A stretch of DNA of 64,000 bases from Candidatus Dojkabacteria bacterium (GTDB taxonomy: Bacteria > Patescibacteriota > Dojkabacteria > SC72). The stretch spans positions 17,399 through 81,398 of the forward strand of contig DATERJ010000018.1 in NCBI GenBank assembly GCA_035271645.1. Direction: 5' to 3'. Below, one piece after another: positions 23,248 to 36,351 of the stretch (position 1 is the stretch's first letter; each line of letters starts with the position of its first letter). The position numbers and the translations under genes were made by a program. The notes beneath the pieces were generated by a model that did not search any database, was not told the origin of the DNA, and saw only the letters and a program-made list of their open reading frames with translations.

Positions 23248-24213
23248 TTGTCACAAAAGAAGAATGTAAATATAAGGTTACCAAAGCAAACTAAAGGTAG
23301 ACACACCATATATATTGATGAGTCAGGAACAGCATCATTAAAAGACAAAGAAAAGTTCTTTATACTCACAGGTGTAATTGCTACCAACCACAGTTTTAAT
23401 GATGTTGAAGAATTCTATTTTAACCTAAAAAGAAAATACTTTGGGTATATTCAACATCTACATTCTGTTGAGCTATTTAGTGAAAATACAAAGTATGTAC
23501 GAAAAAGCAAAGCTCAATTGTTTAAGATAAAGAAATATAGAAAAAGATATATACAAGAATTAGCATACTTTTTAGATACTGTACCATTTGTATTTTTAAC
23601 AATCATAGTTGATAAAGAGAGAATGTTAAAAAGTCTATCACCAGTTAAAATAGATCATCCTTGGGCTACCACAATAGGAGAAGCAAAGAAAATATTTACA
23701 GAGACACACAACGATGAAACTCCTTTTATAGATGCAAAAATTGCAGATGTTATAGATACTATTAATAAACACAAAATACTCCCAACCGACTATTTCAGGC
23801 CACTAAAAATTGCATATAGAGAATTGTTAGAACAATATTTTAAAAACTACCAATACAATATTTATACCACAGGATCAAAGATGCAGATATGTGTAGAATC
23901 ATCTGAGTACCAATCACGAATTTTAAAATACACAGAAGAATTTCTATTGGAAACAGATAGGGTGCAACCGAAACCTAAGAGAACAAAATTTTCGAGAAGA
24001 CTAAAAAACAGTATGTACAGTCTATCCTTTCCTAATAAAAAAGCTAAATTTCTTGGTTTAGAGATAGCAGATATTATCTCATATGGTTATTATCTTTCAT
24101 CACATCATAGAAGGTGTAAGAATGAACTCTATAAAGATATTTGGAAAGTTATTGAGAAAAGAAAGAAGGATATTGAACAGAAATATAATATGAGGTGTGT
24201 AGTTAAGATCTAA
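23248..24213 (+). CDS. DUF3800-family protein.
   Basis: N-terminal HTIYIDESGTAS...FFILTGVI motif characteristic of DUF3800. A second DUF3800 gene is at 35114..35740. Confidence 0.5.
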   Translation: MSQKKNVNIRLPKQTKGRHTIYIDESGTASLKDKEKFFILTGVIATNHSFNDVEEFYFNLKRKYFGYIQHLHSVELFSENTKYVRKSKAQLFKIKKYRKRYIQELAYFLDTVPFVFLTIIVDKERMLKSLSPVKIDHPWATTIGEAKKIFTETHNDETPFIDAKIADVIDTINKHKILPTDYFRPLKIAYRELLEQYFKNYQYNIYTTGSKMQICVESSEYQSRILKYTEEFLLETDRVQPKPKRTKFSRRLKNSMYSLSFPNKKAKFLGLEIADIISYGYYLSSHHRRCKNELYKDIWKVIEKRKKDIEQKYNMRCVVKI

Positions 24214-24250
24214 AAAAAAAAGAGGGAGTCGTACGTGCCAACTCCCTATA
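24212..24250. terminator. Bidirectional intrinsic terminator between convergent genes.
   Basis: A10 run, then the gggagt-cgtacgtgcca-actccc hairpin. On the minus strand the hairpin is followed by T10, so it terminates 24330..25124(-) and probably 23248..24213(+). Confidence 0.55.
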
Positions 24251-24329
24251 TGTTTGCATTATACAATACTAGATAAAAGAAAAGCAAGAGGTTTTTCTTT
24301 TATGTTTTGATTATATAAAAAGGATAGTA

Positions 24330-25124
24330 TTAAAGCAAAAGAGAAAGCATTTTTAACTGTATATCCCCTATTGTTTTCTCTAATACAAAAGTGTCCTTTT
24401 TTAGTTTCCATATTCTAAATACTTGTATATGGGACATAGATGGGTCATGGATAGATGTTACTAGTTTCTTCTTACCTTTGTTGTCATACAACCTAAAAAA
24501 CATTGGGTGTTCTACTATCCAATTATCTTCTTCGTTTTCTTTAGTGTTAAATGGTACTTTAATAGCTTTACCGTCTTCTAGTTTGTAGATGGTTATACTA
24601 TCCTTAGAACCACTCTCCCATTTCCCAACTACTAGGTATTCGTATTTACTAGATGAATATATGACCATACTTACCTCCCCTTCTATACTCCCTTCTTCTT
24701 CCCATACTTCATACCTTACATTGTCCTCTACTACATTATCGTTGTATTTAAGATTACAACCTTTAGGGTCTCCATATACAATGTTATCTATATCTTCTTT
24801 AGGACAGTTTAGTTCTAGTGTATATTCATCTTTTAATGTCCATATTACATTTACATCTGATTTTTCTTTAGTTAATTGATATTTAGGTTTGTTTACTAAT
24901 TGATCTATTTGTTTATATCCTTCTATATCCTTATTCCAATCATATATATATTTATCTATGTTATATGTTTTCTTTAATTCTTTTAGTTCTAATGAATATT
25001 TCTTTTCAAATGATATTTGTTCTTCTGTTTTTTTATTTATTATATATATGTATATGGATATACATATGATTAGTAGTAGGAGAAATATTATTAGTAATGT
25101 TTTTGGTTTGATGTTTTTTAACAT
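24330..25124 (-). CDS. N-terminally membrane-anchored hypothetical protein.
   Basis: N-terminal TM LLIIFLLLLIICISIYIYII; the rest is hydrophilic with no recognised domain. Confidence 0.4.
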   Translation of the reverse strand: MLKNIKPKTLLIIFLLLLIICISIYIYIINKKTEEQISFEKKYSLELKELKKTYNIDKYIYDWNKDIEGYKQIDQLVNKPKYQLTKEKSDVNVIWTLKDEYTLELNCPKEDIDNIVYGDPKGCNLKYNDNVVEDNVRYEVWEEEGSIEGEVSMVIYSSSKYEYLVVGKWESGSKDSITIYKLEDGKAIKVPFNTKENEEDNWIVEHPMFFRLYDNKGKKKLVTSIHDPSMSHIQVFRIWKLKKDTFVLEKTIGDIQLKMLSLLL

Positions 25125-25240
25125 TGGGTTAGTATGTTAAGTTCAATTAATTTATCATATCATTTTTCCTTCTGTTTCTTCCACTAATTTAATCCACTAA
25201 TTGATATAATAGACTAGCAATAAATTGTGGAACAAGCGTT

Positions 25241-25483
25241 ATGAACGAGGAAAAAATCGAAAAAAACATATCTCCAACATTGAGGAAGTATGTTTTAACC
25301 TTAAGACATGAGTACGGATTCTATTCAGAAGAGGAGCAAAGAGAATTAGTCCTTTGGGGTGAGAAAGCCCCTGAGGTAGTACTCAGTTTAGCTCAGAACT
25401 TAGTCATGGACAGAGATAGAACTCATCTCAACCACGGAAGAGAATACAAGTGTATCCTAGTCAGTTTAACAAGACAAGAGTAA
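25241..25483 (+). CDS. Small hypothetical protein (80 aa).
   Basis: ORF only; sits at the edge of the R-M island. Confidence 0.25.
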   Translation: MNEEKIEKNISPTLRKYVLTLRHEYGFYSEEEQRELVLWGEKAPEVVLSLAQNLVMDRDRTHLNHGREYKCILVSLTRQE

Positions 25484-25566
25484 TTTAGACAAAGATGCAA
25501 AAACTTTGCCCTGTTTTTAGTGACCTTAATAGATTCCTACTATTAACAATACTGGTACTACATGAA

Positions 25567-26277
25567 CTAAGTTACTACAGAAAACATTTCCAATTTCTCT
25601 TTCCTCTCTTCCCAGTCAGGACACTGCTTAGTTAATAATCTATAAAAATCTTTATCATGTCTCTTGTGCTTCATATGACATAATTCATGAGTAATAACAT
25701 AATCTATACAACTAGTAGGTGCTTTGATTAAATCGATATTCAAATATACTTTTTTATTACTAAGAAAACTACCCCACCTTTTACTCATTTTACGAATATC
25801 TAATACAGGGGTAAATTTATAAGAAAAAGACTTAAGTACCTCTTTATACCTTCTACGAAAAACTATTTCTGCTCTTTCAGAATACCATTTTGACAACAAA
25901 TTCTTATTATGAGAAGAATTACAAACTTCTTTCTTTGTTCTTAGTTCTATAACTCCTTTCTGCAATTTCACAGATTCTTCTTTGCTTTTCTTAACCTTTA
26001 ACTTGTATTGCCTGCCCAAATAATAAAAACTTTCTCCTGATATATAATCCTTCTTATACTTTTTCCCGTTATACTTATCAAAATACCTTATCTGCTTCTC
26101 CATCCAAGACCATTTTCTCTTTAAAAATTTCTCTATCTCCTCTTCCTTTGCCTTTAGTGGAGCTTTAACAACAAGAGATTTATCTGGTTTTACAACCAGA
26201 CTTATCGTCTTCCTCTTACTTTTGAATAGAGAATACTCATATGAGTATTTCCCATAATTAAAAACCTTAGACTTCAT
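25567..26277 (-). CDS. YgjP/DUF45-family (M48-like, WLM/SprT-related) zinc metallopeptidase.
   Basis: HExxH motif ITHELCHMKHKRHDKDF near the C-terminus. It lies directly downstream of hsdR, a known association. Confidence 0.7.
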   Translation of the reverse strand: MKSKVFNYGKYSYEYSLFKSKRKTISLVVKPDKSLVVKAPLKAKEEEIEKFLKRKWSWMEKQIRYFDKYNGKKYKKDYISGESFYYLGRQYKLKVKKSKEESVKLQKGVIELRTKKEVCNSSHNKNLLSKWYSERAEIVFRRRYKEVLKSFSYKFTPVLDIRKMSKRWGSFLSNKKVYLNIDLIKAPTSCIDYVITHELCHMKHKRHDKDFYRLLTKQCPDWEERKEKLEMFSVVT

Positions 26278-26280
26278 TTC

Positions 26281-29200
26281 TTACAAAATTTCATAATTAT
26301 TTTGTGCAAGAGTCATTATTTTCTCAATAAGATCCCATATGTCTTCATTACTTAAATCAACCCCTCTACCTATTTTCACCACATCGTAAAGATAATCATC
26401 TAATTCATTCCTCATCATCCTTTTCTTCTCAGAGTTTATCTGCCAATCAATTACTGCTTCTCTTTTTAGAATCCCAAATATTTCCAAACAACTAACGATG
26501 ATACAATCCTCATCTAGCCCATGCTTTTTAAAATCTCCCCTTAGATTCCTATAAAAGATATCAACCCCTTCATTTGATTTTATTATATCTGGTAAATCTT
26601 CATCCTCTTTGTTAAGTACTTGTCTACTAAGTTCCTTTGCCTGTTTCAAAGCCTCAATATCAGCCAATTTCTTCTCCCTCATTGCCTGAAGCAAAGCATC
26701 TATCTTGTCAGAGAATTTTCTGTAAAACTTTGGATCTTTCCCCATCCTCTCAGAAACTTCTTTCTGTGTTTGTGAGAGAATCGCAGCCGCTTTAGATTTA
26801 TCTGAACCCAAATCCTCTACAGCCTCCTTAAAAGCTTCCTCATCTGTTATTGAAATCTGTGTTGTTAGTAACTCCGCTTCTTCTGCTTTAATATTTTTAT
26901 CCAAAATATTAATCAAGGCCTGTTTGTATTTCTTAAAATCGGGGGCATCAGAGTATCTAATACTGGCTGTTTTCCTAAGATTTGTATATTTCTTAAGATC
27001 CAACTTAAACATATCAATCTTGTCAAAACTGTCTACAAACTCTTTAAGAATAATACACTCATTAAAGATTCTGATAAAAGCATTTAAATCCTCATAGAAT
27101 CCCTTCCTTACCTGCTCATCTTCTAAATGCTCTAAGTATGCCTCATCATCTTCAGGAACATCTTTGAAAGTATCATATAATTTTTCATACTGTGCTTCTA
27201 ACTCCTCTATCTTCTCATCAACATCAATCAAAGTCCCTTTAACATCCTCGTCATCATAGTTACCAAATAAATCCATAGCCGTTTTAAGATTTTTTGCATT
27301 TTCAGAGTAGTCTATGATATATCCTGCTGTTTTCGGTAAGACATCATTTTCAAACAAACGATTTACTCTAGCTATTGCTTGAAGTAGGTTATGATCCTTC
27401 AGTTCTCTGGCTAAATACAAAACTGTGTTTCTCGGAGCATCAAAACCAGTAAGTAGTTTATGAACAACTATCAAAATTTCAACACCATCTTCATTATATT
27501 TAAAACTATCTATAACTTCTCGTTCATAAGATTCTAAACTTTGATATTTACCTTTTATCTCTCTCAGGTATTCTTCAACCTCTTTCTTATGACTATCCTC
27601 ATAACTACTAATTTCATTTTCATCTGATATTACTAATGCAGTATTTATATCTGATTCATTCTGGAAATATCTTTGGAATAATGTTGCTGCATATTTAGAA
27701 GGTGCAACAATCTGAGCTTTAAGTCCAGTTCCTTTTAGGTGCTTGTTAAAATGCTCCTTGATATCATACCCTATCTCAACAATCCTCGCAGGTGTTTCCT
27801 GCATAGCCTTTGTTTCGATCTCTCTCTGTATATCTCGCATGGTAAAGTTATCCTTTTTTAATTCTTCCTCCAATCGTGCTACCTGTTTATCAATCTCCTT
27901 TTCATCCTGTCGCAAATCAACATATCGACCTTCATAAATCAAAGGAAGAACAATACCGTCATTTAAAGCATCATCTATTGTATATCTATCTATAAATCTG
28001 CCAAACTGATTCTCAGATTTCTTTTCCTTAAGAATTGGAGTACCTGTAAAACCAATGTAACAAGCATTAGGTATAACTCTATTCATCTCTAGGTTAGCTT
28101 CTCCTCCCTGAGATCTATGTACCTCATCTATTAACACAAATATATTTTTATCCTTATCTACAAATCCAGCTCGTATGTCTTTTGCTGCTTGGAACTTGAA
28201 TACTAATGTTGTAATCACATCTGGGGTTTTCTCCTTAATCTTTTTTAATAAATCTTTCCCACTTTTCGCTTTCTTTATCTCTTTCTTAAGACCTGCATTC
28301 TCAAAAGTTTCTTTGATTTGCTGATCTAAATCTCTTCTGTCTGTGACAATAAAGATTCTTGGATTCTCTATCTCAGGATCTTCAATTAAGGCTTTGACAA
28401 ACATAACCATTGTTAAAGATTTACCTGAACCTTGTGTTTGCCAAAGAATACCTCCCTCTCTTCTTTCTCCATGTTCTGTTTTCTCTATATTCCTTATCCT
28501 ATTCAATGCTCTCTTGATTGCAAAGAACTGTTGGTATCTCATAACTTTCTTCACACCAGCATCATAAAGTATGTGATTCTTAGAGATATCTAACAATCTC
28601 TCTTTTCTTAACATACCATATACTCCTCTATCTTGTTCAGAAACTTCTCTGTTAGTTTTTTGTTGATGACCATATGTTTGTCCATTTAAATCTTTCAATA
28701 TTTGAGTGTAAAGGGAGTTGTCTATCTCTTTTGATATAACTCTTGTTATTTCATCATCAAACTCCTTCTTAAATTGTTTTCTGTTCTTCCATTCCTCTTC
28801 AGCAATATCTCTTTCCTGCCATTTTGCATAGAAATTGTTTGGTGTTCCTGTTGTTCCATATCTAAAATCTATTTTGTTTGATGCTATTAAAAGCTGAGGG
28901 TAGATAAAGAGTTTAGGACATCTATCTGGACTCTGATTTCTATTCTGTTGAGTTATTGCGAACTCTACTTCCTTGGAAGATTTTTTGTTTTCAATAACAA
29001 CAAAGGGTATACCATTAACAAATATAACTATGTCTGGTCTAATTGTTGATTTACCTGTAGCTTCAAATTCGACTATAAAGGAGAAGTCATTGTTTTCTAT
29101 ATTATCGAAATCTATAAATCTGAAACTTTTTGATTCATATTTACCATTGTGGAAAACTTTTATTGTTTTCCCTCCTTTTTTAGGCATTATTGTTTGATAT

Positions 29201-29475
29201 ATCTTTTTAGATGTATCTATTATTCCTTCCAAAGGAATATTTTCGAGTTCTTCTATAGCTTCTATTATATTTTTATCACTAAAGATTTCTTCTGTTGCAT
29301 TATTTATTCTCTTTAATGATTCAAATGCTGTGTCTTTGAGTATGAACTTATTAGTATCTCCTCTTCTTTCTTCCATTACCTCATTTACAGGTATGTATCT
29401 GTAACCCATGTTTACTAACATTTCTACAAATGGTAGTTGTGATTGTTTTACTTCATCAAAATCTATATCTGTCAT
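26281..29475 (-). CDS. hsdR: Type I restriction enzyme R subunit.
   Basis: 1064 aa. Helicase motif I ILWQTQGSGKSLTMV, motif II VLIDEVHRS, and the N-terminal nuclease region with IVIFVNGIPFVVIENKK (PD-(D/E)xK). Confidence 0.9.
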   Translation of the reverse strand: MTDIDFDEVKQSQLPFVEMLVNMGYRYIPVNEVMEERRGDTNKFILKDTAFESLKRINNATEEIFSDKNIIEAIEELENIPLEGIIDTSKKIYQTIMPKKGGKTIKVFHNGKYESKSFRFIDFDNIENNDFSFIVEFEATGKSTIRPDIVIFVNGIPFVVIENKKSSKEVEFAITQQNRNQSPDRCPKLFIYPQLLIASNKIDFRYGTTGTPNNFYAKWQERDIAEEEWKNRKQFKKEFDDEITRVISKEIDNSLYTQILKDLNGQTYGHQQKTNREVSEQDRGVYGMLRKERLLDISKNHILYDAGVKKVMRYQQFFAIKRALNRIRNIEKTEHGERREGGILWQTQGSGKSLTMVMFVKALIEDPEIENPRIFIVTDRRDLDQQIKETFENAGLKKEIKKAKSGKDLLKKIKEKTPDVITTLVFKFQAAKDIRAGFVDKDKNIFVLIDEVHRSQGGEANLEMNRVIPNACYIGFTGTPILKEKKSENQFGRFIDRYTIDDALNDGIVLPLIYEGRYVDLRQDEKEIDKQVARLEEELKKDNFTMRDIQREIETKAMQETPARIVEIGYDIKEHFNKHLKGTGLKAQIVAPSKYAATLFQRYFQNESDINTALVISDENEISSYEDSHKKEVEEYLREIKGKYQSLESYEREVIDSFKYNEDGVEILIVVHKLLTGFDAPRNTVLYLARELKDHNLLQAIARVNRLFENDVLPKTAGYIIDYSENAKNLKTAMDLFGNYDDEDVKGTLIDVDEKIEELEAQYEKLYDTFKDVPEDDEAYLEHLEDEQVRKGFYEDLNAFIRIFNECIILKEFVDSFDKIDMFKLDLKKYTNLRKTASIRYSDAPDFKKYKQALINILDKNIKAEEAELLTTQISITDEEAFKEAVEDLGSDKSKAAAILSQTQKEVSERMGKDPKFYRKFSDKIDALLQAMREKKLADIEALKQAKELSRQVLNKEDEDLPDIIKSNEGVDIFYRNLRGDFKKHGLDEDCIIVSCLEIFGILKREAVIDWQINSEKKRMMRNELDDYLYDVVKIGRGVDLSNEDIWDLIEKIMTLAQNNYEIL

Positions 29476-29480
29476 ATTCC

Positions 29481-30701
29481 TTATTTATTATTTTTAAATT
29501 TAGGTAATCTAATATTTCCTGTTACTAGGTTATTTATTAGGTATTTTCTTTGTTGTTCCATTAGAGTTTTTTTATTTTCTAATAGTTCTATTTCTTTGTT
29601 GGATTGGGTGAGGATTCTTACTATTTCTTTTTGTTCTTGGAGAGGAGGAATAGTTACAGACATCTTCCTTAAATCACTACCATAAAGATGAACGATTGTT
29701 ATCCCTTGTGCAAGTCGAGCCATGTCTAATTTCTTAGCATATGAAAGATAGTATGCTAGAAATTCACCATCAATATCTTTCTTAGGTCTAAATATATTAA
29801 TATCTCCCCCTAATAAAACATCATCTCTCATTAAACAAGATGCTGTTGCAACATCTAAAGCATTAGTTGTTGTAGATGCTGGAACTAGAACATCACCTTT
29901 AACTGATCGGACTCCTTCACTAATGTTCGTACGACTAGATACTTCATCTATTATATCACCGTATGTTGTATATAACTCACCATACAATATACATTCTTCT
30001 TGTCCATTGTCATCTAATACTGCTTTAGAAAGACCACGACCTTTTAACACACTTACTATGTCTCCTAGTCGATGTTCCTTAAGATAATCTTTTTTAATTG
30101 TTTTATATGAGAGTAGATTTTGTATTAGATATTTTTCAACATTTTTCTTTACTTCTATCTTTTTATCTAAGAGTTCTATGTATTTATCCCATTTTTCTAT
30201 AGTAGATACGATTTCTTTTTGTTCTTCAATAATGGGAGTGTTTATCTTGAAATTACCTATTAAATCTAAAGTCAACTGTGGCTGTGCGCTACCGAATACT
30301 GCTTTGGTTACTTCTCTTGCAAACAAAGAAGAACCCATAAATAATTGTAGATATCTAGTATCTAGACTTTCTTCCATATTACGAATAATAACCATTCCAG
30401 AATTGATTCTTATATGAGAAAATGTAACATCATCACCATAATATGCAAATCTCCCAACTGTCCCTCTAGTTGTTAAGACCAGATCTCCCCTGAACAACTT
30501 ACCATTACCCATCAAGTTGTCTTTCTCTAAAGAAATAAACTTTGTATGAGAGAAATCAAAAGTACCTTCTTGAATATTGTCTGCACTCAGAAATACACAG
30601 TCTCCGTTCTCGGACAAATCATCACTCTTAGGATAGTTTTTCCCCCTGTCCCCATCAATAATTTTTATATTTAAATCTCTTAACTTTTTTCTACAAAACA
30701 T
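29481..30701 (-). CDS. hsdS: Type I R-M specificity subunit with two target-recognition domains.
   Basis: 406 aa. The conserved coiled-coil regions IIEEQKEIVSTIEKWDKYIELLDKKIE and IPPLQEQKEIVRILTQSNKEIELLENKK each repeat once, one per TRD. Confidence 0.85.
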   Translation of the reverse strand: MFCRKKLRDLNIKIIDGDRGKNYPKSDDLSENGDCVFLSADNIQEGTFDFSHTKFISLEKDNLMGNGKLFRGDLVLTTRGTVGRFAYYGDDVTFSHIRINSGMVIIRNMEESLDTRYLQLFMGSSLFAREVTKAVFGSAQPQLTLDLIGNFKINTPIIEEQKEIVSTIEKWDKYIELLDKKIEVKKNVEKYLIQNLLSYKTIKKDYLKEHRLGDIVSVLKGRGLSKAVLDDNGQEECILYGELYTTYGDIIDEVSSRTNISEGVRSVKGDVLVPASTTTNALDVATASCLMRDDVLLGGDINIFRPKKDIDGEFLAYYLSYAKKLDMARLAQGITIVHLYGSDLRKMSVTIPPLQEQKEIVRILTQSNKEIELLENKKTLMEQQRKYLINNLVTGNIRLPKFKNNK

Positions 30702-31822
30702 ATTTCTCTAATATCCCTTTTTAAATTATCTGATTCTCCCTGAACCTTCCCCACCATTCTCTTAGCTCTCTCTAATACATGGTCATAAGTTAGTATACTA
30801 ATATTTTGATAGGTTGAGTTTAATACTCTATACATTTTCTTTTCTTCATCATTCCATTCAATATTTCTACCATATATCAAGGTAATTTTAGGTTTTAATA
30901 ATGTATACCCACCTAATTTCTCAAGATACTCGGCATCATTTATCTTCTTCTCTATTTCTACAAGATACTTCATACATTGTACAGTTGCTTTTGTTAGATT
31001 TGCTGTTGGACATGTATCAGAGGTCCAAAAACTTGAACTCGGCAATTTTAACTCTACAATATCTACAAAACCATCATAAGATTGTAGTAAATAATCTGTG
31101 ATATCATCTTCATCAATATTACGATGATCTAACATTTCCACATATTCCGCACCTAATATCCACTTGTTTTCCTTGAAAAACCTTTGCCAAACCTCTTCAT
31201 CTTTACCAACTCCAAGTTCATTCTTGTATTTTTCAAATTCCGCCTCATCATTCAAGATTTTCTCAAATCTATCGACTGCCCTTTTCCTGTGAGTTATATC
31301 TTCAAGATCACCATACTGAAGTAAATTGAAATTTCTTACAATCTCTGTAAGTTTTTCTTGACCAACAGGATCTTTAACAACTAAATCCAAGAACTTCTTT
31401 AATTCTTCAGGGTTTTCGATGATTGACTTATCCAACATCAAAGTTCTATTTGCAATCGATTCCAAATCCAAATTTGAAAACACATGTAGTAACTGCAAAA
31501 TCCTCTCAAAAGCAAGTGTCGAAAAATGTATCTTTTCCAACCTTTTATTAGACAACTTTGAGATTTCCACTCCATCTATTTTCTTAGAGTTTGTTAAATA
31601 TGTCACTCTTAAACAAATTTTAGGAGATATTTTAATTTTTATATCTTCACCTTCAGAATCTGGGCAATCAGTTACTGAGATATACTTGCCTTCGCCACTA
31701 GCAAAGTCAGCTACATATATAACCCCATTCTTCTTATTTTCTAAAATACTCTCCTCCGAAGTATCAAAAGGTTCTATTCCTGTATAAGCATTATCCATTT
31801 TCAGAATAACTTTTAAACTCAA
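30680..31822 (-). CDS. Embedded PD-(D/E)xK nuclease-like protein, Shedu/DUF4263-like, between hsdM and hsdS.
   Basis: C-terminal region ...ILGAEYVEMLDHRNIDEDDITDYLLQSYDGFVDIVELKLPSSSFW has a D...D..E.K core. Its ~380-aa size and position in the operon resemble single-gene defense nucleases. The start overlaps hsdS by 22 nt and the stop abuts hsdM. Confidence 0.4.
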   Translation of the reverse strand: MSLKVILKMDNAYTGIEPFDTSEESILENKKNGVIYVADFASGEGKYISVTDCPDSEGEDIKIKISPKICLRVTYLTNSKKIDGVEISKLSNKRLEKIHFSTLAFERILQLLHVFSNLDLESIANRTLMLDKSIIENPEELKKFLDLVVKDPVGQEKLTEIVRNFNLLQYGDLEDITHRKRAVDRFEKILNDEAEFEKYKNELGVGKDEEVWQRFFKENKWILGAEYVEMLDHRNIDEDDITDYLLQSYDGFVDIVELKLPSSSFWTSDTCPTANLTKATVQCMKYLVEIEKKINDAEYLEKLGGYTLLKPKITLIYGRNIEWNDEEKKMYRVLNSTYQNISILTYDHVLERAKRMVGKVQGESDNLKRDIREICFVEKS

Positions 31823-31823
31823 C

Positions 31824-33341
31824 TTAACTAATCCCCAAATCCTTAAGACATTCTTTCATCTCTTTCTCTAATCTCTTAAGTTCTGGTTCTATATCTTCTA
31901 ATTCTTTCAAATTAGCTTTAATATCTACTGGTTCCTCCTCCTCAAATGTATCTACATACCTAGTAATATTAAGATTAAAATCATTCTCCTCTATCTCATC
32001 AGGATTAACTACCCTCGCGAACTTCTCAACATCTTTTCTTGCAACATAGGTATCATAAATCTTCTGTATATTCTCATCAGATAATGTATTCTTAGGAGAA
32101 CCTGCTACAAACTCCTTAGATGCTTCTATAAAGAAGATATCTTTCCTATCTTCATTCTCACCACCCTCTTCTCTAGATCTATCTATAATTAGTAAAACAA
32201 CAGGTATATCCGTTGTTTGAAATAACTTTCCTGGTAAACCAATAACAGCATCAATAATATTCTCTTCTATAAATCTTCTTCTTATCTTTCCTTCTGCCCC
32301 ACTTCTAAACAAAACACCATGGGGTACAACTATTACAGCTCTACCAGATTTAGGTTTTAATGTCTCAACTGCATGAGTAATGAAAGCATAATCTCCATTC
32401 CCTTTTGGTGGAATACCTCTAAAGAACCTATTGTATTTATCACCCTCAGCATTCTCAGCTCCCCATTTATCTAAAGAATATGGAGGATTTGCTACGATAA
32501 TATCAAACTTCATTAACCTATCATTCTCTACCAATTGAGGATTGTTTAATGTATCACCCCATTCAATTCTTGCATCATCTTTACCATGAAGAAACATATT
32601 CATTCTACATAATTGATATGTACTACCTTTTGATTCCTGCCCATACAATGCATAGTCCTTAGAACCACTCTCTTCAACTTCTTTACCTGCTAGTAGGAGC
32701 ATACCTCCAGAGCCACATGCAAAATCCGCTATCCTATCACCCTTTTTAGGTTGTGCAAGTTTAGCTACAATTTTAGAAATTTGAGTAGGAGAAAAGAATT
32801 CTCCTGCTTTTTTACCTGCATCTGCTCCAAACCTCTCAATCATGTACATATATGCATTACCCATAACATCATCATCTACATCTGTTAAATCTATCTTTGC
32901 AAAATCTTTAATCAAATTCCTAATCATCTTGTTTCTCTCCTCTAACTTTCCTAATACTGCTTCTGAATTGAAATCTACACTAAATACTCCTCCTAACTTT
33001 GCTTCATTAGCATCTTCTATCTTAGCAAGTACCTTGTTCAATTCTTCTCCAATATTATCCTCTTCCATAATGCTGTAAATGTAGTCAAAAGATGTATTTG
33101 GAGGAAGATAGAATCTATCAAGTTTCATTTTTGCCTCTATTCTTTCCTTATCATTAGCAAATCTCTCTTTATATTCTTCCCTCTTTTTATTTGATAAATC
33201 ACTAAGATATTTGAAGAACAACATAACTAAAACATAATCCTTGTATATACTGGCATCTACTGCTGTCCTAGATGAGTCTGCAGCTGCCCAAAGAACTTTA
33301 TTAAGTTCTTCTTGTGAATATTTCTTGGTGTTTCTTGCCAT
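31824..33341 (-). CDS. hsdM: Type I R-M N6-adenine DNA methyltransferase subunit.
   Basis: N-terminal HsdM helical domain, FADFACGSGGMLL (motif I) and VANPPYS (motif IV). Confidence 0.9.
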   Translation of the reverse strand: MARNTKKYSQEELNKVLWAAADSSRTAVDASIYKDYVLVMLFFKYLSDLSNKKREEYKERFANDKERIEAKMKLDRFYLPPNTSFDYIYSIMEEDNIGEELNKVLAKIEDANEAKLGGVFSVDFNSEAVLGKLEERNKMIRNLIKDFAKIDLTDVDDDVMGNAYMYMIERFGADAGKKAGEFFSPTQISKIVAKLAQPKKGDRIADFACGSGGMLLLAGKEVEESGSKDYALYGQESKGSTYQLCRMNMFLHGKDDARIEWGDTLNNPQLVENDRLMKFDIIVANPPYSLDKWGAENAEGDKYNRFFRGIPPKGNGDYAFITHAVETLKPKSGRAVIVVPHGVLFRSGAEGKIRRRFIEENIIDAVIGLPGKLFQTTDIPVVLLIIDRSREEGGENEDRKDIFFIEASKEFVAGSPKNTLSDENIQKIYDTYVARKDVEKFARVVNPDEIEENDFNLNITRYVDTFEEEEPVDIKANLKELEDIEPELKRLEKEMKECLKDLGIS

Positions 33342-33350
33342 TTTAATTTT

Positions 33351-33929
33351 TTAAAAATTTAATTTCTTAACAGCATAATTAAGAATATTTTCATTAATAT
33401 CCTTCTTCCTATCTAAAAGATCTTTCTGTTTAACAATATTATCATACAAAGAGATGATTCTTTTTTGATATTCGATATCTGGGACTGGTATATTTAATCT
33501 TTCTAATTGGCTTTTAGAAATTCCTTTTATATATGCTCCAATACTTATTTTCTCTAATTCCTTCTGACCTTCAGGAGAGGAGAGATATATTGCTAAATAC
33601 TTTGGAATTAGTTTTTTGTTATTTACTCTGACAACTAGAATGGATGATGTTGCTATTGCATCGAGGTTTTCATCAAAGTAACCCACAGTCGAATTACCTT
33701 TTGAGGCTACTAATACATCCCTTTTCTTAAGGAAGGCAAGGGTTTCTAGGTCATCTGTATCAACTTTCTGTAAAGATTCTAGATCAAAATTGATAGAATT
33801 AGGAAGTAAATCTTGAGATTGAATTACCAGTGTTTTTCCTTGGGGCATTTTAGCAACAGACATTCTAAATGAGTATCCTGACAATATATCTGCTACTTGA
33901 TTTAGTCTATATCTCTCTATCATACACAC
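33351..33929 (-). CDS. Half-size HsdS (single target-recognition domain) upstream of hsdM.
   Basis: 192 aa. One TRD plus the conserved HsdS helix ISKSQLERLNIPVPDIEYQKRIISLYDNIV... Confidence 0.65.
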   Translation of the reverse strand: MCMIERYRLNQVADILSGYSFRMSVAKMPQGKTLVIQSQDLLPNSINFDLESLQKVDTDDLETLAFLKKRDVLVASKGNSTVGYFDENLDAIATSSILVVRVNNKKLIPKYLAIYLSSPEGQKELEKISIGAYIKGISKSQLERLNIPVPDIEYQKRIISLYDNIVKQKDLLDRKKDINENILNYAVKKLNF

Positions 33930-33961: not shown

Positions 33962-34981
33962 CTACCTCCCTACTGTCCCCAAAACCACCCTCTCACATAA
34001 TTCTTCAAATGATATACCTACTACCATAGCTTCCTGTGGTAATAAACTAGTAGGAGTCATACCAGGTAATGTATTAGCTTCTAAACAAAAAAATTTGTTT
34101 TTTGTATCACTAAGTAAAAAATCTATCCTAGAATAACTACCTAAACCCAATACATTATGTACTCTTAATGCAATACTCCTTACCTCTTTTTCTTTCTCTT
34201 GGGTTAAGTTACTAGGACAAACCTCAATACTAGCTCCCTTCTGATACTTGTTCTTGTAATCATAGAAACCTTTCTTAGGTATAACCTCAATACTAGGTAA
34301 CACCTCCCCATTCAATATACCTACAGAAAACTCCCTACCCTTAATATACTCCTCAAGAAGAATATCATCAGAATACCTCCTAGCCTCTCTAACAGCATCA
34401 TCTAACCCATCCTTACTTCTTACTATCCTAACCCCTACACTAGAACCACAATCCAATGGTTTAACTACACAAGGAATATCAAACTTAGGTATCTCTGCTC
34501 CCTTCTTAACTACAACATACTTAGGAGTAAGAATACCATTCTTAACAAACACATCCTTACTCTTACCTTTATCCATAGCTAACATAGAAGATTTAGAATC
34601 ACTACCTGTATATCTAATACCTAAATCTTCAAATATTTTCTGTAACTTACCATTCTCTCCAATATCACCATGTAATCCTAAAAATACAACATCACTATAC
34701 TTACATATCTCTAATACATTCTTCCCTATCTTCTCACTACCATATATCTTTTCTAATTCTTTTAAATCAGGTTCATTCTTAGGTACTACATATTTAAATG
34801 GTTTACCACCTTTCTTAAACAACTTAGATATACCACCCTTAGGAATATCACAACCTAAATACAGATCTAACATACATACACTATGATTATTCTTTAACAA
34901 AGCATTCCCTATTAAAGCACCAGAAGACAGAGATACATCTCTCTCAGGACTAAGACCACCACATAGTACTACAATATTCAT
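33962..34981 (-). CDS. ddl: D-alanine--D-alanine ligase.
   Basis: MNIVVLCGGLSPERDVSLSSG N-terminus; ATP-grasp motifs (FLGLHG..GENG, CVVKPLDCGSSVGV, EANTLPGMT). Confidence 0.85.
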   Translation of the reverse strand: MNIVVLCGGLSPERDVSLSSGALIGNALLKNNHSVCMLDLYLGCDIPKGGISKLFKKGGKPFKYVVPKNEPDLKELEKIYGSEKIGKNVLEICKYSDVVFLGLHGDIGENGKLQKIFEDLGIRYTGSDSKSSMLAMDKGKSKDVFVKNGILTPKYVVVKKGAEIPKFDIPCVVKPLDCGSSVGVRIVRSKDGLDDAVREARRYSDDILLEEYIKGREFSVGILNGEVLPSIEVIPKKGFYDYKNKYQKGASIEVCPSNLTQEKEKEVRSIALRVHNVLGLGSYSRIDFLLSDTKNKFFCLEANTLPGMTPTSLLPQEAMVVGISFEELCERVVLGTVGR

Positions 34982-35113
34982 AGTTAGAGTATATATTATT
35001 TCTATACAACACTCACCTAAAATATGGTATAATGTATATAGAGTGATTTAGTGTCGAATTGTTGCCATTATGGTATGCGTTTCTGAGAAATCAGAATAGG
35101 CACTAAATCCATT

Positions 35114-35740
35114 CTATTTCATCACACAAACATCTATAACCTTTTTCCTTATCACTTCTAGATATATATCACTATCATTTCTTCCCCTCTCTAAAGATTT
35201 GTATATACTACCAACAACCATATCAACAACTTGTATCATCGGTTCACTCCTAGAATCTACATATTTAACCCCTGAGATATATTTATCTTTATATTTCCCA
35301 TTCAACCCCCTTATTTCAGAATTAATAGCTCTTTTCATTTCTCTCTCTTTCTTACCATCTACCACTAGTTTCGCAGAATCTAACAAATGAAGATTCTTTG
35401 TTAGTAATTGTCTAAAAAAGTAATTGTAATAATCATGTTTATTCTTTATGACAACATGAGAAAAGTACGAGTTCTTATCAACCACTAAACACACAACTCT
35501 CATATCAAAATCTTTTACAAGAGAAAGAAATTTCAGCCTTAACTCTTTGTTCGCCTTTCGAAACTTAAATTCAAAACAATCACTTTTTCCTAGTGATTTC
35601 TTAAATCTCACAACCTCCCTCCTACTCTTTTCTACTACCGATTTAGAATTAAAGAGAATCATACATAGCACAAAGAAAGGACTAGAACCCTTATCTAGCT
35701 TAATACCTGGATCTCCTGATTCATCTATGAAAACAATCAT
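35114..35740 (-). CDS. DUF3800-family protein, second copy.
   Basis: N-terminal MIVFIDESGDPG...FFVLCMILF; same family as 23248..24213. Confidence 0.5.
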   Translation of the reverse strand: MIVFIDESGDPGIKLDKGSSPFFVLCMILFNSKSVVEKSRREVVRFKKSLGKSDCFEFKFRKANKELRLKFLSLVKDFDMRVVCLVVDKNSYFSHVVIKNKHDYYNYFFRQLLTKNLHLLDSAKLVVDGKKEREMKRAINSEIRGLNGKYKDKYISGVKYVDSRSEPMIQVVDMVVGSIYKSLERGRNDSDIYLEVIRKKVIDVCVMK

Positions 35741-35826
35741 AGGTGAATTCTAGCACTAAGCCTTCCTAAAGGTATTAAGAGTTAATTAAAACAGGTCTAT
35801 AATGATGAAAACATCTTTATTCCTAT

Positions 35827-36351
35827 ATGCTATACTATCCTATGCCCAATCTACTAATATATATATTAATATTAATCCCCATACTCCTTGTACTAACCAT
35901 TCTCTCATCATTATCAAACAAAGGTCGTCTAAACAAAAATCTAAAAGCATATACATATACAAGAAAACCATACATCATGACCAAAGGAGAAAATGAATTC
36001 TTTCAAGTACTAACCAAAATACTTCAAAACAAATATTACATATTTCCTCAAATACACCTAACAACATTCCTAGAACACAAAGTAATGGGACAAACATGGA
36101 AAGGTGCTAAAGCTCATATAGATAGATTATCTGTAGACTATGTAATATGTGATAAGAAATATCTCTCTCCCATGATCGCAATCGAATTAGATGACTCTAC
36201 ACATAACAGAGGGGATAGGATTGTAAGAGATACAGAAGTAGAAAGAATATTACAAGAAGCTAAAGTACCACTAATTAGAATCCCATATACTGATAGATTT
36301 AAGGAAGAAGAGATTAAAGAGAAAGTTTTTCAATATCTCAAATCTAACTAA
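35827..36351 (+). CDS. DUF2726-family protein (PD-(D/E)xK / NERD-like) with an N-terminal membrane anchor.
   Basis: TKGENEFFQVL...IFPQIHL...HIDRLSVDYVICDKKYLSPMIAIELDDSTHNRGDRIVRD...KVPLIRIP matches the DUF2726 core. N-terminal TM LLIYILILIPILLVLTIL. Confidence 0.65.
   Translation: MLYYPMPNLLIYILILIPILLVLTILSSLSNKGRLNKNLKAYTYTRKPYIMTKGENEFFQVLTKILQNKYYIFPQIHLTTFLEHKVMGQTWKGAKAHIDRLSVDYVICDKKYLSPMIAIELDDSTHNRGDRIVRDTEVERILQEAKVPLIRIPYTDRFKEEEIKEKVFQYLKSN

What the first reader, a model, noticed from the sequence alone, without database searches (positions are those of the whole stretch)
23248..36351. Two DUF3800 genes bracket the R-M island, with a DUF2726 nuclease-like gene just beyond
DUF3800 proteins (N-terminal IDESG motif) occur at 23248-24213 (+) and 35114-35740 (-), flanking the R-M operon and ddl. 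Immediately beyond lies a DUF2726 PD-(D/E)xK/NERD-like gene (35827-36351) with a membrane anchor. Upstream sits a small PD-(D/E)xK-like basic protein (22374-22862). This concentration of poorly characterised nuclease-fold genes around an R-M system is typical of defense islands. Duplicated DUF3800 at both edges could mark island boundaries or a two-copy accessory function.
Basis: partly seen in the sequence, partly recalled or inferred. Interest (0 to 1): 0.6.

Follow-up and report, generated by a model that had tools for sequence, protein, structure and literature searches.

The report
Nuclease genes with convergent partner RNAs
In a strain-variable, defence-rich stretch of a tiny candidate-phylum bacterium's genome, the two 'DUF3800' genes are not duplicates but two different RNase H2-like genes, and each ends against its own small RNA gene on the opposite strand (one RNA is a known orphan motif, the other matched no catalogued RNA family), which makes the unexplained link between DUF3800 proteins and RNAs easier to test.

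Summary
The gene calls are right. DUF3800 domains lie at 23248-24213 (+) and 35114-35740 (-), and DUF2726 lies at 35827-36351. Between them sit ddl and a type I R-M operon with a Shedu gene embedded in it. The organism is a Candidatus Dojkabacteria.

The 'duplicated boundary markers' reading fails. The two DUF3800 proteins share only the N-terminal motif, ddl separates them, and close strains carry each one independently.

Each DUF3800 gene ends against a small RNA gene on the opposite strand:
- **DUF3800b (35114-35740):** the Rfam DUF3800-IX RNA at 35045-35113 (+). It was present in 77 of 77 testable relatives, always convergent, usually with its own TTGACA/TATAAT promoter.
- **DUF3800a (23248-24213):** a roughly 40-nt hairpin RNA at about 24212-24251 (-). 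It was found in 13 of 14 distinct relatives. It is more conserved than the coding sequence, matches no Rfam family, and has tandem extra copies in two loci.

Both proteins model as RNase HII-like. DUF3800a sits directly after hsdM inside type I R-M operons in three relatives. RNA-only loci exist: two strains, and eight phage-like contigs.

Best reading: these are obligate nuclease plus small-RNA modules, probably defence or toxin-antitoxin-like. That function is inferred, not shown.

The parts
22374..22862 (+). Small basic protein (162 aa). A stand-alone copy of a PD..ExK nuclease domain that is otherwise found at the C-terminus of phage MuF or minor-capsid 'polymorphic toxin' proteins (CdiA_C-like). 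Its own terminator hairpin (about 22848-22894) overlaps its UAG stop codon.
   Evidence: No family hit for the window protein itself. Invariant E39, E44, P68, D69, E78 and K80. Profile search gave 502 hits, mostly C-terminal. The larger relatives carry Phage_Mu_F or Phage_min_cap2 plus CdiA_C PF18451. It lies next to a DUF3800a-family gene in L015 as well, but in the other gene order.
23167..23247 (+). Conserved upstream region of the DUF3800a cassette; likely its promoter and 5' UTR.
   Evidence: Nucleotide homology with L021 starts at 23167. A conserved TTGTAAGA..TGGTA(T/A)AA block is seen in the upstream alignment. Its function as a promoter is inferred.
23248..24213 (+). DUF3800a: a 321-aa DUF3800 protein with an RNase HII-like fold and helical insertions. 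Invariant D24, E25, H72, E217 and D275. It has ExxD where other DUF3800 proteins have QxxD.
   Evidence: Pfam PF12686, 39.6 bits. Family alignment A1. AF2 model pLDDT 86.4. Foldseek top hits are RNase HII 1EKE (E 7.7e-3, probability 0.98) and human RNase H2A 3PUF.
24212..24251 (-). Candidate small RNA partner of DUF3800a (about 40 nt): 5' AUAUA, an 8-bp hairpin GGGAGUUG/CGACUCCC with loop GCACGUA (24246-24224), then a U-run whose end abuts the DUF3800a stop codon. It matches no Rfam family.
   Evidence: CM R2 hit at 24215-24257 (-), 51.5 bits, E 9e-10; this is the only hit in the 64-kb window. Terminator scan finds a site at 24247-24223 on the - strand. Present at the stop codon in 13 of 14 distinct family loci. 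100% of 96 cells pair, with 3 compensatory pairs and 12 G.U against 0 A.C. No hits in 547 kb of control DNA. No Rfam match at E<=10. The exact RNA ends are inferred.
24258..24287 (-). Putative promoter of that small RNA: -10 TATAAT (24263-24258) and a weak -35 TTGCTT (24287-24282), 18-nt spacer.
   Evidence: A -10-like hexamer lies 7-9 nt before the conserved AU(A/G)YA lead-in in every family locus. Clear TTGACA-like -35 boxes occur in L016, L150, L152 and L154. The simple promoter scan does not list this site in the window.
25567..33929 (-). Type I R-M operon with inserted genes: one-domain hsdS (33351-33929), hsdM (31824-33341), Shedu sduA (30680-31822), hsdS (29481-30701), hsdR (26281-29475) and a YgjP-like metallopeptidase (25567-26277). 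Gaps between genes are 9 nt or less, or the genes overlap.
   Evidence: Pfam. PADLOC SduA E 1.2e-61 and Specificity_I. Coordinates. Close strains L011 and L021 have a different type I system here.
33962..34981 (-). ddl (D-Ala-D-Ala ligase). A housekeeping gene that forms the conserved anchor on the right of the swappable R-M cassette.
   Evidence: Pfam. L021 ddl is 95.5% identical at protein level, and homology to the window starts at 33983.
35025..35033 (+). Extended -10 element TGGTATAAT of the DUF3800-IX RNA gene.
   Evidence: Sequence. In 72 distinct relatives, TATAAT sits at -17..-12 (53-81% per position), TTgaca around -41 and uACAAA at -6..-1 relative to the motif start. L004 keeps homology up to 35000, so the promoter travels with the RNA.
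35045..35113 (+). DUF3800-IX RNA (Rfam RF02968): a 69-nt three-way junction. Its 3' end abuts the stop codon of DUF3800b on the other strand.
   Evidence: Rfam 53.8 bits against a gathering score of 36.8, E 8e-9. Folding z-score -5.1. In 39 relatives, 88.9% of cells pair and 18 of 24 pairs have compensatory changes; 0 of 500 shuffles reach this. Two near-invariant U.G pairs (38/39 and 39/39 sequences). 219 G.U against 21 A.C.
35114..35740 (-). DUF3800b: a 208-aa DUF3800 protein with an RNase HII-like fold. Invariant D6, S8, G9, D10, E57, K89, S163, Q170 and D173 (DE...QxxD).
   Evidence: Pfam 63.6 bits. PADLOC candidate PDC-M04A, E 9e-12. Alignment A2. AF2 model pLDDT 90.8. Foldseek 1EKE RNase HII, E 5.6e-5, TM 0.54.
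35827..36351 (+). DUF2726 (PD-(D/E)xK-type) protein, transcribed divergently from DUF3800b, with a possible N-terminal membrane helix. It is a neighbour in this species only.
   Evidence: Pfam. Translation. Adjacent in 10 near-identical metagenome contigs. Not among the recurrent neighbours in 68 other DUF3800b loci.

Best explanation
**What the region is.** It is a strain-variable defence neighbourhood of a Candidatus Dojkabacteria genome. A swappable type I R-M operon, here carrying a Shedu gene, lies to the left of ddl.

**What the two DUF3800 genes are.** They are unrelated members of the RNase H2-like DUF3800 superfamily. Each is half of a compact two-part module: the protein gene, and a small RNA gene on the opposite strand. 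The RNA gene has its own promoter in relatives, and its terminator ends at or over the protein's stop codon.
- For DUF3800b the RNA is the known 69-nt DUF3800-IX three-way junction (35045-35113, +).
- For DUF3800a it is a roughly 40-nt hairpin RNA (about 24212-24251, -) that matched no Rfam family.

**Shown here:** the architecture, the strict co-occurrence, the strand, the structural covariation, the fold, and the R-M embedding.

**Inferred:** the RNA binds its cognate DUF3800 protein and keeps an RNase H2-like nuclease in check, as an antitoxin-like or regulatory partner. The module would then work as a phage-defence or addiction element. Loss or titration of a short-lived RNA would free the nuclease to attack RNA:DNA hybrids or structured nucleic acid.
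For: **Co-occurrence and geometry**
- The IX RNA was found in 77 of 80 DUF3800b loci. The other three contigs end less than 50 nt after the gene. The RNA is always on the opposite strand.
- The gap from stop codon to RNA falls in two groups: -2 to +6 nt, or 16-44 nt. In the first 39 loci inspected, the larger gaps go with a separate terminator hairpin.
- The hairpin RNA was found at the stop codon in 13 of 14 distinct DUF3800a loci. It had no hits in 547 kb of control DNA and only one hit in the window.

**Independent transcription units**
- Conserved -35/-10 boxes lie upstream on the RNA strand.
- Second tandem RNA copies, not used to train the model, occur in L152/L153 and L013, each preceded by its own -10-like hexamer.

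**The functional strand is antisense to the gene**
- 219 G.U against 21 A.C for IX; 12 against 0 for the hairpin. Near-invariant U.G pairs (38/39 and 39/39 sequences).

**Selection on the RNA itself**
- 18 of 24 pairs (IX) and 3 of 8 pairs (hairpin) show compensatory changes.
- The hairpin element is 95% identical between loci whose proteins are 65% identical and whose coding DNA is 71% identical.

**Fold**
- RNase HII is the top solved structure for both models. This agrees with PMC7736814 and PMC10910872.

**Defence context**
- DUF3800a lies directly after hsdM in three independent type I operons, at the point where the window's operon carries Shedu, and next to R-M or NucS-like nucleases in others.
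- DUF3800b matches PADLOC candidate PDC-M04A and, weakly, the retron type VII DUF3800 model.

**Asymmetry of loss**
- The RNA survives without the protein in L021 (IX RNA intact, DUF3800b replaced) and in L011 (5' half of DUF3800a deleted, RNA intact).
- No protein without its RNA was seen.
- Eight distinct phage-like contigs carry IX-like RNAs with no DUF3800 gene in the DNA fetched.
Against: - No expression, binding, toxicity or phage data exist for any DUF3800 plus RNA pair.
- The antitoxin role is an analogy. An RNA that is an essential cofactor, a processing substrate or a cis-antisense regulator fits the co-occurrence equally well.
- The promoter evidence is comparative. In this AT-rich window the -35 boxes are weak and the simple promoter scan does not list either site.
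- Most immediate neighbours of DUF3800b in 68 other loci are housekeeping or unknown genes, and only a minority are R-M or defence genes.
- The loci were found by protein search, so 'no protein without RNA' is well sampled, but RNA-only loci are not.
- The two RNA-only strains rest on single metagenome contigs. The 'viral' contigs are predictions, and no relative was found in deposited phage genomes or plasmids.
- The DUF3800a RNA set is small: 14 distinct loci, 12 of them in the model.
Confidence: 0.55

Rival explanations
1. The convergent elements are only transcription terminators or insulators. They stop antisense read-through into the DUF3800 genes, or end the gene's own transcript, and have no RNA product with a function of its own.
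For: Both elements end in a stem followed by a U-run and sit exactly at the gene ends. In the window a minus-strand gene (24330-25124) lies upstream of the DUF3800a hairpin and could use it as its terminator.
Against: - The elements travel with the DUF3800 genes whatever lies downstream, including same-strand genes such as hsdS in L021.
- Conserved -35/-10 boxes lie at a fixed distance on the RNA strand.
- Extra tandem copies with their own promoters lie 115-180 nt away from any stop codon.
- The IX RNA is a three-way junction with invariant junction and loop bases, far more than a terminator needs.
- Loop and flank sequence is conserved above the level of the coding DNA.
Confidence: 0.1
2. 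The RNAs are cis-antisense regulators, comparable to type I toxin-antitoxin pairs that overlap at their 3' ends. The DUF3800 mRNA reads through the RNA gene, the two transcripts form a duplex, and the mRNA is degraded or its synthesis is blocked by transcriptional collision. No protein-RNA complex is needed.
For: The convergent, abutting or overlapping geometry holds in every locus of both families. There is no U-run after the hairpin on the gene strand, so the mRNA probably extends across the RNA gene.
Against: - Cis-antisense pairing is guaranteed by the shared DNA, so it does not explain conserved intramolecular helices with compensatory changes, near-invariant U.G wobbles, or near-identical RNA sequence across phyla.
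- RNA-only copies on phage-like contigs have no sense partner.
- The proteins are 208-321-aa enzymes, not small membrane peptides.
- A test for pairing between the IX RNA and the 5' region of its own mRNA was negative.
Confidence: 0.15
3. The RNA is an obligatory cofactor, scaffold or substrate of an RNA-protein effector, as crRNA or omega RNA is for its nuclease. It activates or targets the nuclease rather than inhibiting it.
For: Co-occurrence is strict and the RNA core is strongly conserved. RNase H-like folds commonly work with RNA partners, and a TPR-DUF3800 protein is linked to Cas12a2 systems (PMC10910872).
Against: - Neither RNA has a variable segment that could act as a guide. The single-stranded parts (ACAAA, AUGYA) are short and conserved.
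- A phage has no obvious gain from carrying a host nuclease's cofactor alone, yet eight phage-like contigs hold orphan RNAs.
- RNA-only remnants in strains do not discriminate between the two models.
Confidence: 0.2
4. One reading: the two DUF3800 genes are duplicates that mark the two ends of one mobile defence island running from 22.3 to 36.4 kb.
For: They lie on either side of the R-M operon, and the interval is rich in nuclease-fold genes.
Against: - The proteins are not detectably paralogous beyond the domain signature, E 0.011 over 32 residues.
- ddl lies inside the interval.
- Strain comparisons put the swap breakpoints at about 25.1 kb and 33.98 kb.
- DUF3800b, its RNA and DUF2726 stay with mnmA and SufBD in ten contigs.
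- The DUF3800a cassette is found at unrelated sites in relatives.
- No long terminal repeats bracket the interval.
Confidence: 0.03

Closest known systems
DUF3800-associated RNA motifs I-XI (Weinberg et al. 2017, PMC5737381; Rfam RF02968 for IX)
   Same: The element at 35045-35113 is a clear member of DUF3800-IX. The second RNA shares the defining association with a DUF3800 gene. Function is unknown for all of them.
   Different: The hairpin RNA next to DUF3800a matches none of the Rfam families, even at E<=10. It is much smaller (about 40 nt, one hairpin). This work adds a fixed architecture for both RNAs: convergent, own promoter, terminator at the stop codon. [quoted passage not shown]
Type III toxin-antitoxin systems (ToxIN-like; recalled from established knowledge)
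   Same: A protein nuclease paired with a dedicated small structured RNA of about 35-70 nt. The RNA is likely made in excess from a strong promoter. Both occur among defence genes. Phage-borne RNA-only copies recall the pseudo-ToxI decoys of phages.
   Different: In type III systems the RNA is a tandem repeat array upstream on the same strand, and the toxin itself cuts it into units. Here the RNA is usually single, convergent and downstream, with its own promoter and terminator. The protein has an RNase H2-like fold, not a ToxN/AbiEii-type fold. Toxicity and neutralisation are untested.
Retron type VII (RT plus msDNA plus DUF3800 effector; Mestre et al. 2020, PMC7736814)
   Same: A DUF3800 RNase H2-like protein coupled to a dedicated structured nucleic acid in a predicted defence system. 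Like the retron proteins, DUF3800a lacks the Q of the QxxD motif.
   Different: No reverse transcriptase or msr/msd is near either gene. The partner here is a plain small RNA. The PADLOC retron-VII DUF3800 model matches DUF3800b only weakly (E 1.6e-4) and does not match DUF3800a.
RNase HII / RNase H2 (PDB 1EKE, 3PUF)
   Same: It is the best structural match for both models, and both share the N-terminal (I/F)-D-E-(S/A)-G strand motif.
   Different: About 10-13% identity and TM-score only 0.34-0.54. The later acidic residues are arranged differently (QxxD or ExxD helix), which was described as a 'catalytic rearrangement' in PMC10910872. DUF3800a has large helical insertions. The substrate is unknown.
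Type I R-M operons with inserted accessory defence genes
   Same: The window has hsdM-sduA-hsdS-hsdR-ygjP. Relatives have hsdM-DUF3800a-hsdS-(AAA_15)-hsdR.
   Different: The inserted DUF3800a cassette brings a promoter that fires against the direction of the operon.

Membership tests
DUF3800 (Pfam PF12686) | Profile match above the gathering score (21 bits) | tested here: met
   39.6 bits for 23248-24213; 63.6 bits for 35114-35740.
DUF3800 (Pfam PF12686) | N-terminal DE motif and C-terminal QxxD motif (as described in PMC7736814) | tested here: inconclusive
   DUF3800b has both: D6-E7, with Q170 and D173 invariant. DUF3800a has D24-E25 but E272-x-x-D275 in place of QxxD, as the retron type VII proteins do.
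DUF3800 (Pfam PF12686) | RNase H2-like fold | tested here: met
   The AF2 models have pLDDT 90.8 and 86.4. Foldseek's top solved structure is 1EKE RNase HII for both: E 5.6e-5 for b; E 7.7e-3, probability 0.98 for a. The TM-scores are modest (0.54 and 0.34-0.46).
DUF3800-IX RNA (Rfam RF02968) | Covariance-model score above the gathering score (36.8 bits) | tested here: met
   53.8 bits, E 8e-9, full length 1-67.
DUF3800-IX RNA (Rfam RF02968) | Three-way junction supported by covariation, and adjacency to a DUF3800 gene | tested here: met
   18 of 24 pairs have compensatory changes and 88.9% of cells pair, against 31-46% in the slid controls. The RNA abuts DUF3800b here and in 77 of 77 testable relatives.
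Any Rfam 15 family (for the 24212-24251 hairpin RNA) | Covariance-model match at the site | tested here: not met
   Only a chance-level L20_leader match (24210-24305, 21 bits against a gathering score of 58.7, E 3.3) overlaps the site at E<=5 in the window. No match lies at the equivalent sites of six relatives at E<=10.
Type III toxin-antitoxin | RNA antitoxin as tandem repeats upstream of the toxin gene, on the same strand, in one operon | tested here: not met
   Both RNAs are downstream and convergent, are usually single copy, and have their own promoter.
Type III toxin-antitoxin | Protein is toxic and is neutralised by direct RNA binding | not testable with these tools
   This needs expression and binding experiments.
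Type I toxin-antitoxin (3'-overlapping antisense) | Small hydrophobic toxin peptide | tested here: not met
   The proteins are 208 and 321 aa and model as soluble RNase H2-like enzymes.
Retron type VII | Adjacent reverse transcriptase and msr/msd | tested here: not met
   No RT domain was found in any ORF of at least 80 aa between 19.3 and 39.5 kb. No retron ncRNA was found by Rfam.
Shedu (SduA) | DUF4263/SduA_C nuclease domain | tested here: met
   Pfam SduA_C 70.6 bits. PADLOC SduA E 1.2e-61.
Type I restriction-modification | hsdR, hsdM and hsdS together | tested here: met
   HSDR_N plus SWI2_SNF2 plus T1R_D3; HsdM_N plus N6_Mtase; Methylase_S twice.
DUF2726 (Pfam PF10881) | Profile match above the gathering score (24.7 bits) | tested here: met
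   93.9 bits.
CdiA_C / MuF-type polymorphic-toxin nuclease domain (PF18451), for 22374-22862 | Profile match above the gathering score (26.6 bits) | tested here: inconclusive
   The window protein has no hit and its L015 homologue scores 20.3 bits. Relatives found with the family profile do score above threshold: P0119 43.6, P0224 31.7, P0114 27.8. The PD..ExK motif is invariant.

The most novel reading that the evidence does not exclude
DUF3800 proteins as a whole are RNase H2-like effectors, and each is governed by a dedicated small RNA encoded tail-to-tail with the gene. That would be a widespread class of RNA-protein toxin-antitoxin or defence module, distinct in architecture from types I and III. 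The RNA would be the inhibitor. Phages would carry RNA-only copies as decoys, and in type VII retrons msDNA would play the same part. On this reading the window holds two versions of the module, one with an RNA class that has not been catalogued.
Probability: 0.3. Interest if true: 0.8.

Novelty: new variant of a known kind. Interest (0 to 1): 0.6.

Why it matters
The eleven DUF3800-associated RNA motifs were reported in 2017 as structured RNAs with no proposed function. The papers found here offer only fold predictions for the protein.

This window and its relatives add several concrete things:
- A fixed, simple architecture for two clades: a convergent small RNA gene with its own promoter, ending at the stop codon.
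- Complete co-occurrence of protein and RNA in the loci that could be tested.
- A further RNA class, not in Rfam, for a clade that has no known partner.
- Repeated insertion of the module directly after hsdM in type I R-M operons, the point where the window's own operon carries Shedu.
- RNA-only copies in strains and on phage-like contigs.

Together these turn 'curious motifs' into a testable model: a small RNA controlling an RNase H2-like nuclease in defence. The constructs needed are only about 1 kb. If the model holds, it would also suggest what the DUF3800 component does in type VII retrons and in the Cas12a2-linked systems.

Tried and rejected
1. **Twin hairpins at 22848-22894 and 22946-22992 as a new DUF3800 RNA.** They fold strongly (z -6.2). 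However, the first is the terminator of the small ORF and contains its UAG stop codon. The second belongs to a 105-nt relic (22934-23038) that is 96% identical to the 3' end of another allele of that ORF in L015. Rejected.
2. **DUF2726 as a functional partner of DUF3800b.** It is adjacent only in this species and is not among the recurrent upstream neighbours in 68 other loci. Rejected as a general partner.
3. **The 24330-25124 protein as a diverged NucS-like nuclease,** like the neighbours of DUF3800a in L015 and L020. No similarity, and no family hit.
4. **Pairing of the IX RNA with the 5' region of its own mRNA.** Cognate pairs are no better than non-cognate pairs in 63 loci, p 0.26. Rejected.
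5. **Small ORF plus DUF3800a as a fixed gene pair.** They are adjacent only in the window and L015, and in opposite order. Not supported.
6. **Relatives on sequenced phages and plasmids.** None found by tblastn. No DUF3800a relatives and no copy of its RNA pattern on IMG/VR contigs.
7. **Literature.** No paper gives a tested function for DUF3800 or its RNAs. The 2017 supplement is not held.
9. **Simple promoter scan of the window.** It does not list either small-RNA promoter, and matches in the region are at or below chance.

Full report
**Organism and observation**

The window has about 32% G+C. The protein at 35114-35740 is identical to one that NCBI names from a Candidatus Dojkabacteria metagenome-assembled genome. 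The closest genome record is Candidatus Dojkabacteria isolate Gw_SlDig_bin_189 (L011).

Pfam confirms both DUF3800 genes. 23248-24213 (+) scores 39.6 bits and 35114-35740 (-) scores 63.6 bits. It also confirms DUF2726 at 35827-36351 (93.9 bits).

One co-directional block on the minus strand lies between the two DUF3800 genes:
- ddl, 33962-34981
- a one-domain hsdS, 33351-33929
- hsdM, 31824-33341
- a Shedu sduA gene, 30680-31822 (PADLOC E 1.2e-61)
- hsdS, 29481-30701
- hsdR, 26281-29475
- a YgjP-like peptidase, 25567-26277

The DUF2726 protein has a hydrophobic N-terminus only if the long start codon is used, and gene callers on near-identical contigs disagree about that start.

The small protein at 22374-22862 has no family hit of its own. 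Its family keeps E39, E44, P68-D69 and E78-x-K80 invariant. A profile of the family finds 502 relatives, most of them the C-terminal 150 residues of larger proteins. Those larger proteins carry phage MuF, minor-capsid or portal domains, followed by a CdiA_C nuclease-toxin domain. The gene-level observation is therefore confirmed.

**The two DUF3800 genes are not duplicates and do not bound the island**

BLASTP aligns the two proteins over only 32 N-terminal residues, E 0.011. Each has its own family:
- 'a' is about 300-330 aa, with invariant D24, E25, H72, E217 and D275, and ExxD in place of QxxD.
- 'b' is about 208 aa, with invariant D6, S8-G9-D10, E57, K89, S163, Q170 and D173.

Strain comparisons show where the variable DNA really begins and ends.
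- L021 has ddl at 95.5% protein identity and 97.4% nucleotide identity over window 33983-35119. To the left of ddl it carries a different type I system (hsdR 28% identical) in the opposite orientation.
- L011 has the neighbouring kinase at 99% identity. It keeps the unknown gene 24330-25124 but then carries yet another type I system (hsdM 32% identical). It lacks window 20941-23152.
- The swappable R-M cassette is therefore about 25.1-33.98 kb, with ddl as the right-hand anchor.
- DUF3800b and DUF2726 stay with mnmA and SufBD in ten near-identical contigs. Both are missing in L021.
- No long repeats bracket 22.3-36.4 kb.

The 'defence island' idea is supported. The 'duplicated boundary markers' idea is not.

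**A known RNA sits against DUF3800b**

Rfam places DUF3800-IX (RF02968) at 35045-35113 on the + strand. It scores 53.8 bits against a gathering score of 36.8, E 8e-9. Its last base touches the stop codon of DUF3800b (35114-35116) on the other strand. It folds well (z -5.1) and is preceded by TGGTATAAT at 35025-35033.

A metagenome scan gave 80 loci with 31-41% identical relatives of DUF3800b.
- Rfam found the RNA in 38 of the first 40 loci.
- A covariance model built from those hits found it in 77 of 80. The other three contigs end less than 50 nt after the gene.
- The RNA is on the opposite strand in every case.
- Its end lies -2 to +6 nt from the stop codon, or 16-44 nt away. In the first 39 loci inspected, the larger gaps go with a separate terminator hairpin.

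Structure and strand are well supported.
- 88.9% of cells pair, against 31-46% in the slid controls. 18 of 24 pairs have compensatory changes, and 0 of 500 shuffles reach this.
- Two U.G wobbles in P2 are nearly invariant (38/39 and 39/39 sequences).
- Over 75 distinct sequences there are 219 G.U against 21 A.C. The functional strand is therefore the one antisense to the gene.

Upstream on that strand, 72 distinct loci share TTgaca near -41, TATAAT at -17..-12 (53-81% per position) and uACAAA at -6..-1. This is a free-standing small RNA gene that converges on DUF3800b. The immediate upstream neighbours of DUF3800b in 68 loci show no recurrent partner protein, and only a minority are R-M or defence genes. 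The module is therefore the protein plus the RNA.

**DUF3800a has an equivalent partner that matches no catalogued family**

No Rfam family matched near any DUF3800a gene, and only a chance-level hit (L20_leader, 21 bits, E 3.3) overlaps the site in the window. Aligning the 3' flanks showed that every family locus has the same feature just after the stop codon. On the opposite strand there is:
- a -10-like hexamer, with clear TTGACA-like -35 boxes in L016, L150, L152 and L154;
- 7-9 nt of spacer, then AUAUA or (CAG)AUG(C/U)A;
- an 8-9-bp hairpin;
- a U-run that ends at or over the stop codon.

These loci come from Dojkabacteria, Saccharibacteria, Caldisericia and another metagenome-assembled genome.

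In the window the parts are:
- hairpin, 24224-24246
- U-run, 24212-24221 (read on the - strand)
- -10 box, 24263-24258
- weak -35 box, 24287-24282

The terminator scan independently calls 24247-24223 on the - strand.

Evidence that the element is a real, specific RNA gene:
- In 12 sequences all 96 cells pair, and three pairs show compensatory changes. Within GUUG/C(R)(R)C all but one sequence has exactly one U.G wobble, which would be a C.A mismatch on the gene strand (12 G.U, 0 A.C).
- A covariance model hits only at DUF3800a stop codons in 232 kb that includes the whole window. It hits 13 of 14 distinct loci, and L149 has a different hairpin in the same place.
- The model also finds second tandem copies that were not used to train it, in L152/L153 and L013. 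Each is preceded by its own -10-like hexamer.
- It finds nothing in 547 kb of DUF3800b loci at E<=1.
- The element is better conserved than the gene. For L013 against L015, the protein is 65% identical, the coding DNA 71% and the RNA 95%.

**Fold and context**

The AF2 models are confident, with pLDDT 90.8 for b and 86.4 for a. The best solved match for both is RNase HII (1EKE): E 5.6e-5 and TM 0.54 for b; E 7.7e-3 and probability 0.98 for a, followed by human RNase H2A. This agrees with two published predictions (PMC7736814; PMC10910872).

DUF3800a lies directly after hsdM in three independent type I operons:
- L013
- L021/L022: hsdM-DUF3800a-hsdS-AAA_15-hsdR
- L152/L153

That is the point, just after hsdM, where the window's own operon carries Shedu. 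DUF3800a lies beside a type I system in the window, L011 and L015. It lies beside a NucS_C-type nuclease in L015 and L020, and L020 also has a resolvase. Elsewhere it sits among housekeeping genes.

**RNA without protein**

- L021 keeps ddl and an intact IX RNA (46.7 bits). Homology to the window stops at 35119, and another gene follows.
- L011 has lost the first 177 codons of DUF3800a but keeps the hairpin RNA.
- A search of IMG/VR starting from the conserved IX core found 12 loci, all with full-length RNA hits of 42-62 bits.
- Only three of those have a DUF3800b gene beside the RNA.
- The other nine (eight distinct) have no convergent ORF and no DUF3800 domain in the flanking ORFs tested. 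Their neighbours are ORFans, a small terminase, an AAA_25 protein and a LAGLIDADG protein.
- No intact DUF3800a or DUF3800b gene without its RNA was seen.

**Mechanism**

Shown here: two obligate modules of a protein plus a convergent small RNA; the functional strand; the structures; the RNase H2-like fold; and the defence context.

Inferred: the RNA binds the protein and restrains it, in an antitoxin-like way. The arguments are:
- the near-consensus promoters of the RNA genes;
- sequence-specific conservation beyond what pairing requires;
- the asymmetry of loss (RNA-only loci seen, protein-only loci not seen);
- the phage-borne orphan RNAs;
- the analogy with type VII retrons, where a DUF3800 protein accompanies msDNA.

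Rival readings are that the RNA is a plain terminator, a cis-antisense regulator, or a cofactor or guide. They are weighed in the rival-explanations section of this report. A test for pairing between the RNA and the 5' region of its own mRNA was negative. No experiment on any DUF3800-RNA pair was found.

**Novelty and score**

The IX RNA is a new member of a known motif, and the defence island as such is ordinary. The new points are the DUF3800a-associated RNA, the fixed convergent architecture with its own promoter, the R-M operon embedding, and the RNA-only copies. I rate this as a new variant of a known kind, interest 0.6.

The main caveats:
- There are no expression or functional data.
- The DUF3800a set is small (14 distinct loci).
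- The promoter evidence for the window itself is comparative only.
- The RNA-only strains and the 'viral' contigs rest on metagenome assemblies and predictions.

Noticed in passing
window 30680-31822 (-): A Shedu sduA gene sits inside the type I R-M operon between hsdM and hsdS. It overlaps hsdS by 22 nt and starts 1 nt after the end of hsdM. Relatives carry DUF3800a (plus an AAA_15 ATPase) at the same point, so the position just after hsdM looks like a slot for exchangeable defence genes.
   Followed up: partly
window 33351-33929 (-): An extra one-domain hsdS gene (192 aa) lies between ddl and hsdM, in addition to the full two-domain hsdS at 29481-30701. No long repeats shared by the two genes were seen. 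It could be a spare or a remnant specificity gene.
   Followed up: partly
window 22934-23038, and 22882-22933 with 24288-24339: A 105-nt relic is 96% identical to the 3' end plus terminator of another allele of the small ORF (L015 7497-7601). A 52-nt direct repeat (71% identity) flanks the relic plus the DUF3800a cassette. Both look like scars of cassette insertion or recombination.
   Followed up: partly
L021 8749-8817, and L011 6001-6473: Two RNA-only states occur in close strains. L021 has an intact IX RNA next to ddl, but DUF3800b and DUF2726 are replaced by a membrane-protein gene. L011 has lost the 5' half of DUF3800a, but its hairpin RNA is intact.
   Followed up: partly
L156, L157, L159, L160/L162, L163, L161, L164, L166 (IMG/VR contigs): Full-length DUF3800-IX-like RNAs (42-59 bits) occur with no DUF3800 gene in the 2-15 kb fetched. 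Their neighbours are ORFans, a small terminase, an AAA_25 protein and a LAGLIDADG protein. They may be phage-borne decoy RNAs.
   Followed up: partly
L152 3532-3575, L153 3385-3428, L013 1546-1586: Second tandem copies of the DUF3800a-associated hairpin RNA lie 115-180 nt beyond the first. Each is preceded by its own -10-like hexamer and has a different loop variant. L096 also has a second IX RNA at 2961-3031.
   Followed up: partly
window 37486-38451 (+): A 321-aa gene of unknown function lies between mnmA and SufBD. Its only hit is a faint PtuA-like AAA match (E 0.003). It is present in L001 but absent from near-identical contigs L002, L003 and L005-L008, so it is a strain-specific insertion.
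   Followed up: no
window 12144-18700: A tRNA at 12144-12217 is followed by a drop in G+C from about 0.40 to 0.28-0.31. The next 6.5 kb is not shared with the close strain L011, which has about 2.4 kb of other DNA there. This is a second variable segment next to a tRNA gene.
   Followed up: no
L001-L010 (contig ends), and L004 2008-3129: Most metagenome contigs that carry DUF3800b break within about 100-350 nt after the RNA, at the start of ddl. This fits strain variation there. In L004 an rve-type transposase and type II secretion genes follow the RNA promoter instead of ddl.
   Followed up: partly
L015 7591-8514, and L020 9168-10133: A conserved 307-321-aa protein (69% identical between the two loci) has a DUF8426-type N-terminus and a NucS_C/PD-(D/E)xK C-terminus. 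It lies next to DUF3800a-family genes and looks like a type IV restriction-like enzyme. L020 also has a resolvase beside it.
   Followed up: no
L103-L148 (IMG/VR): About 22 of the 46 viral-contig loci with DUF3800b relatives lie within 3 kb of a contig end. This suggests cargo at prophage edges, or host DNA included in the prophage calls. No relatives were found in deposited phage genomes.
   Followed up: no
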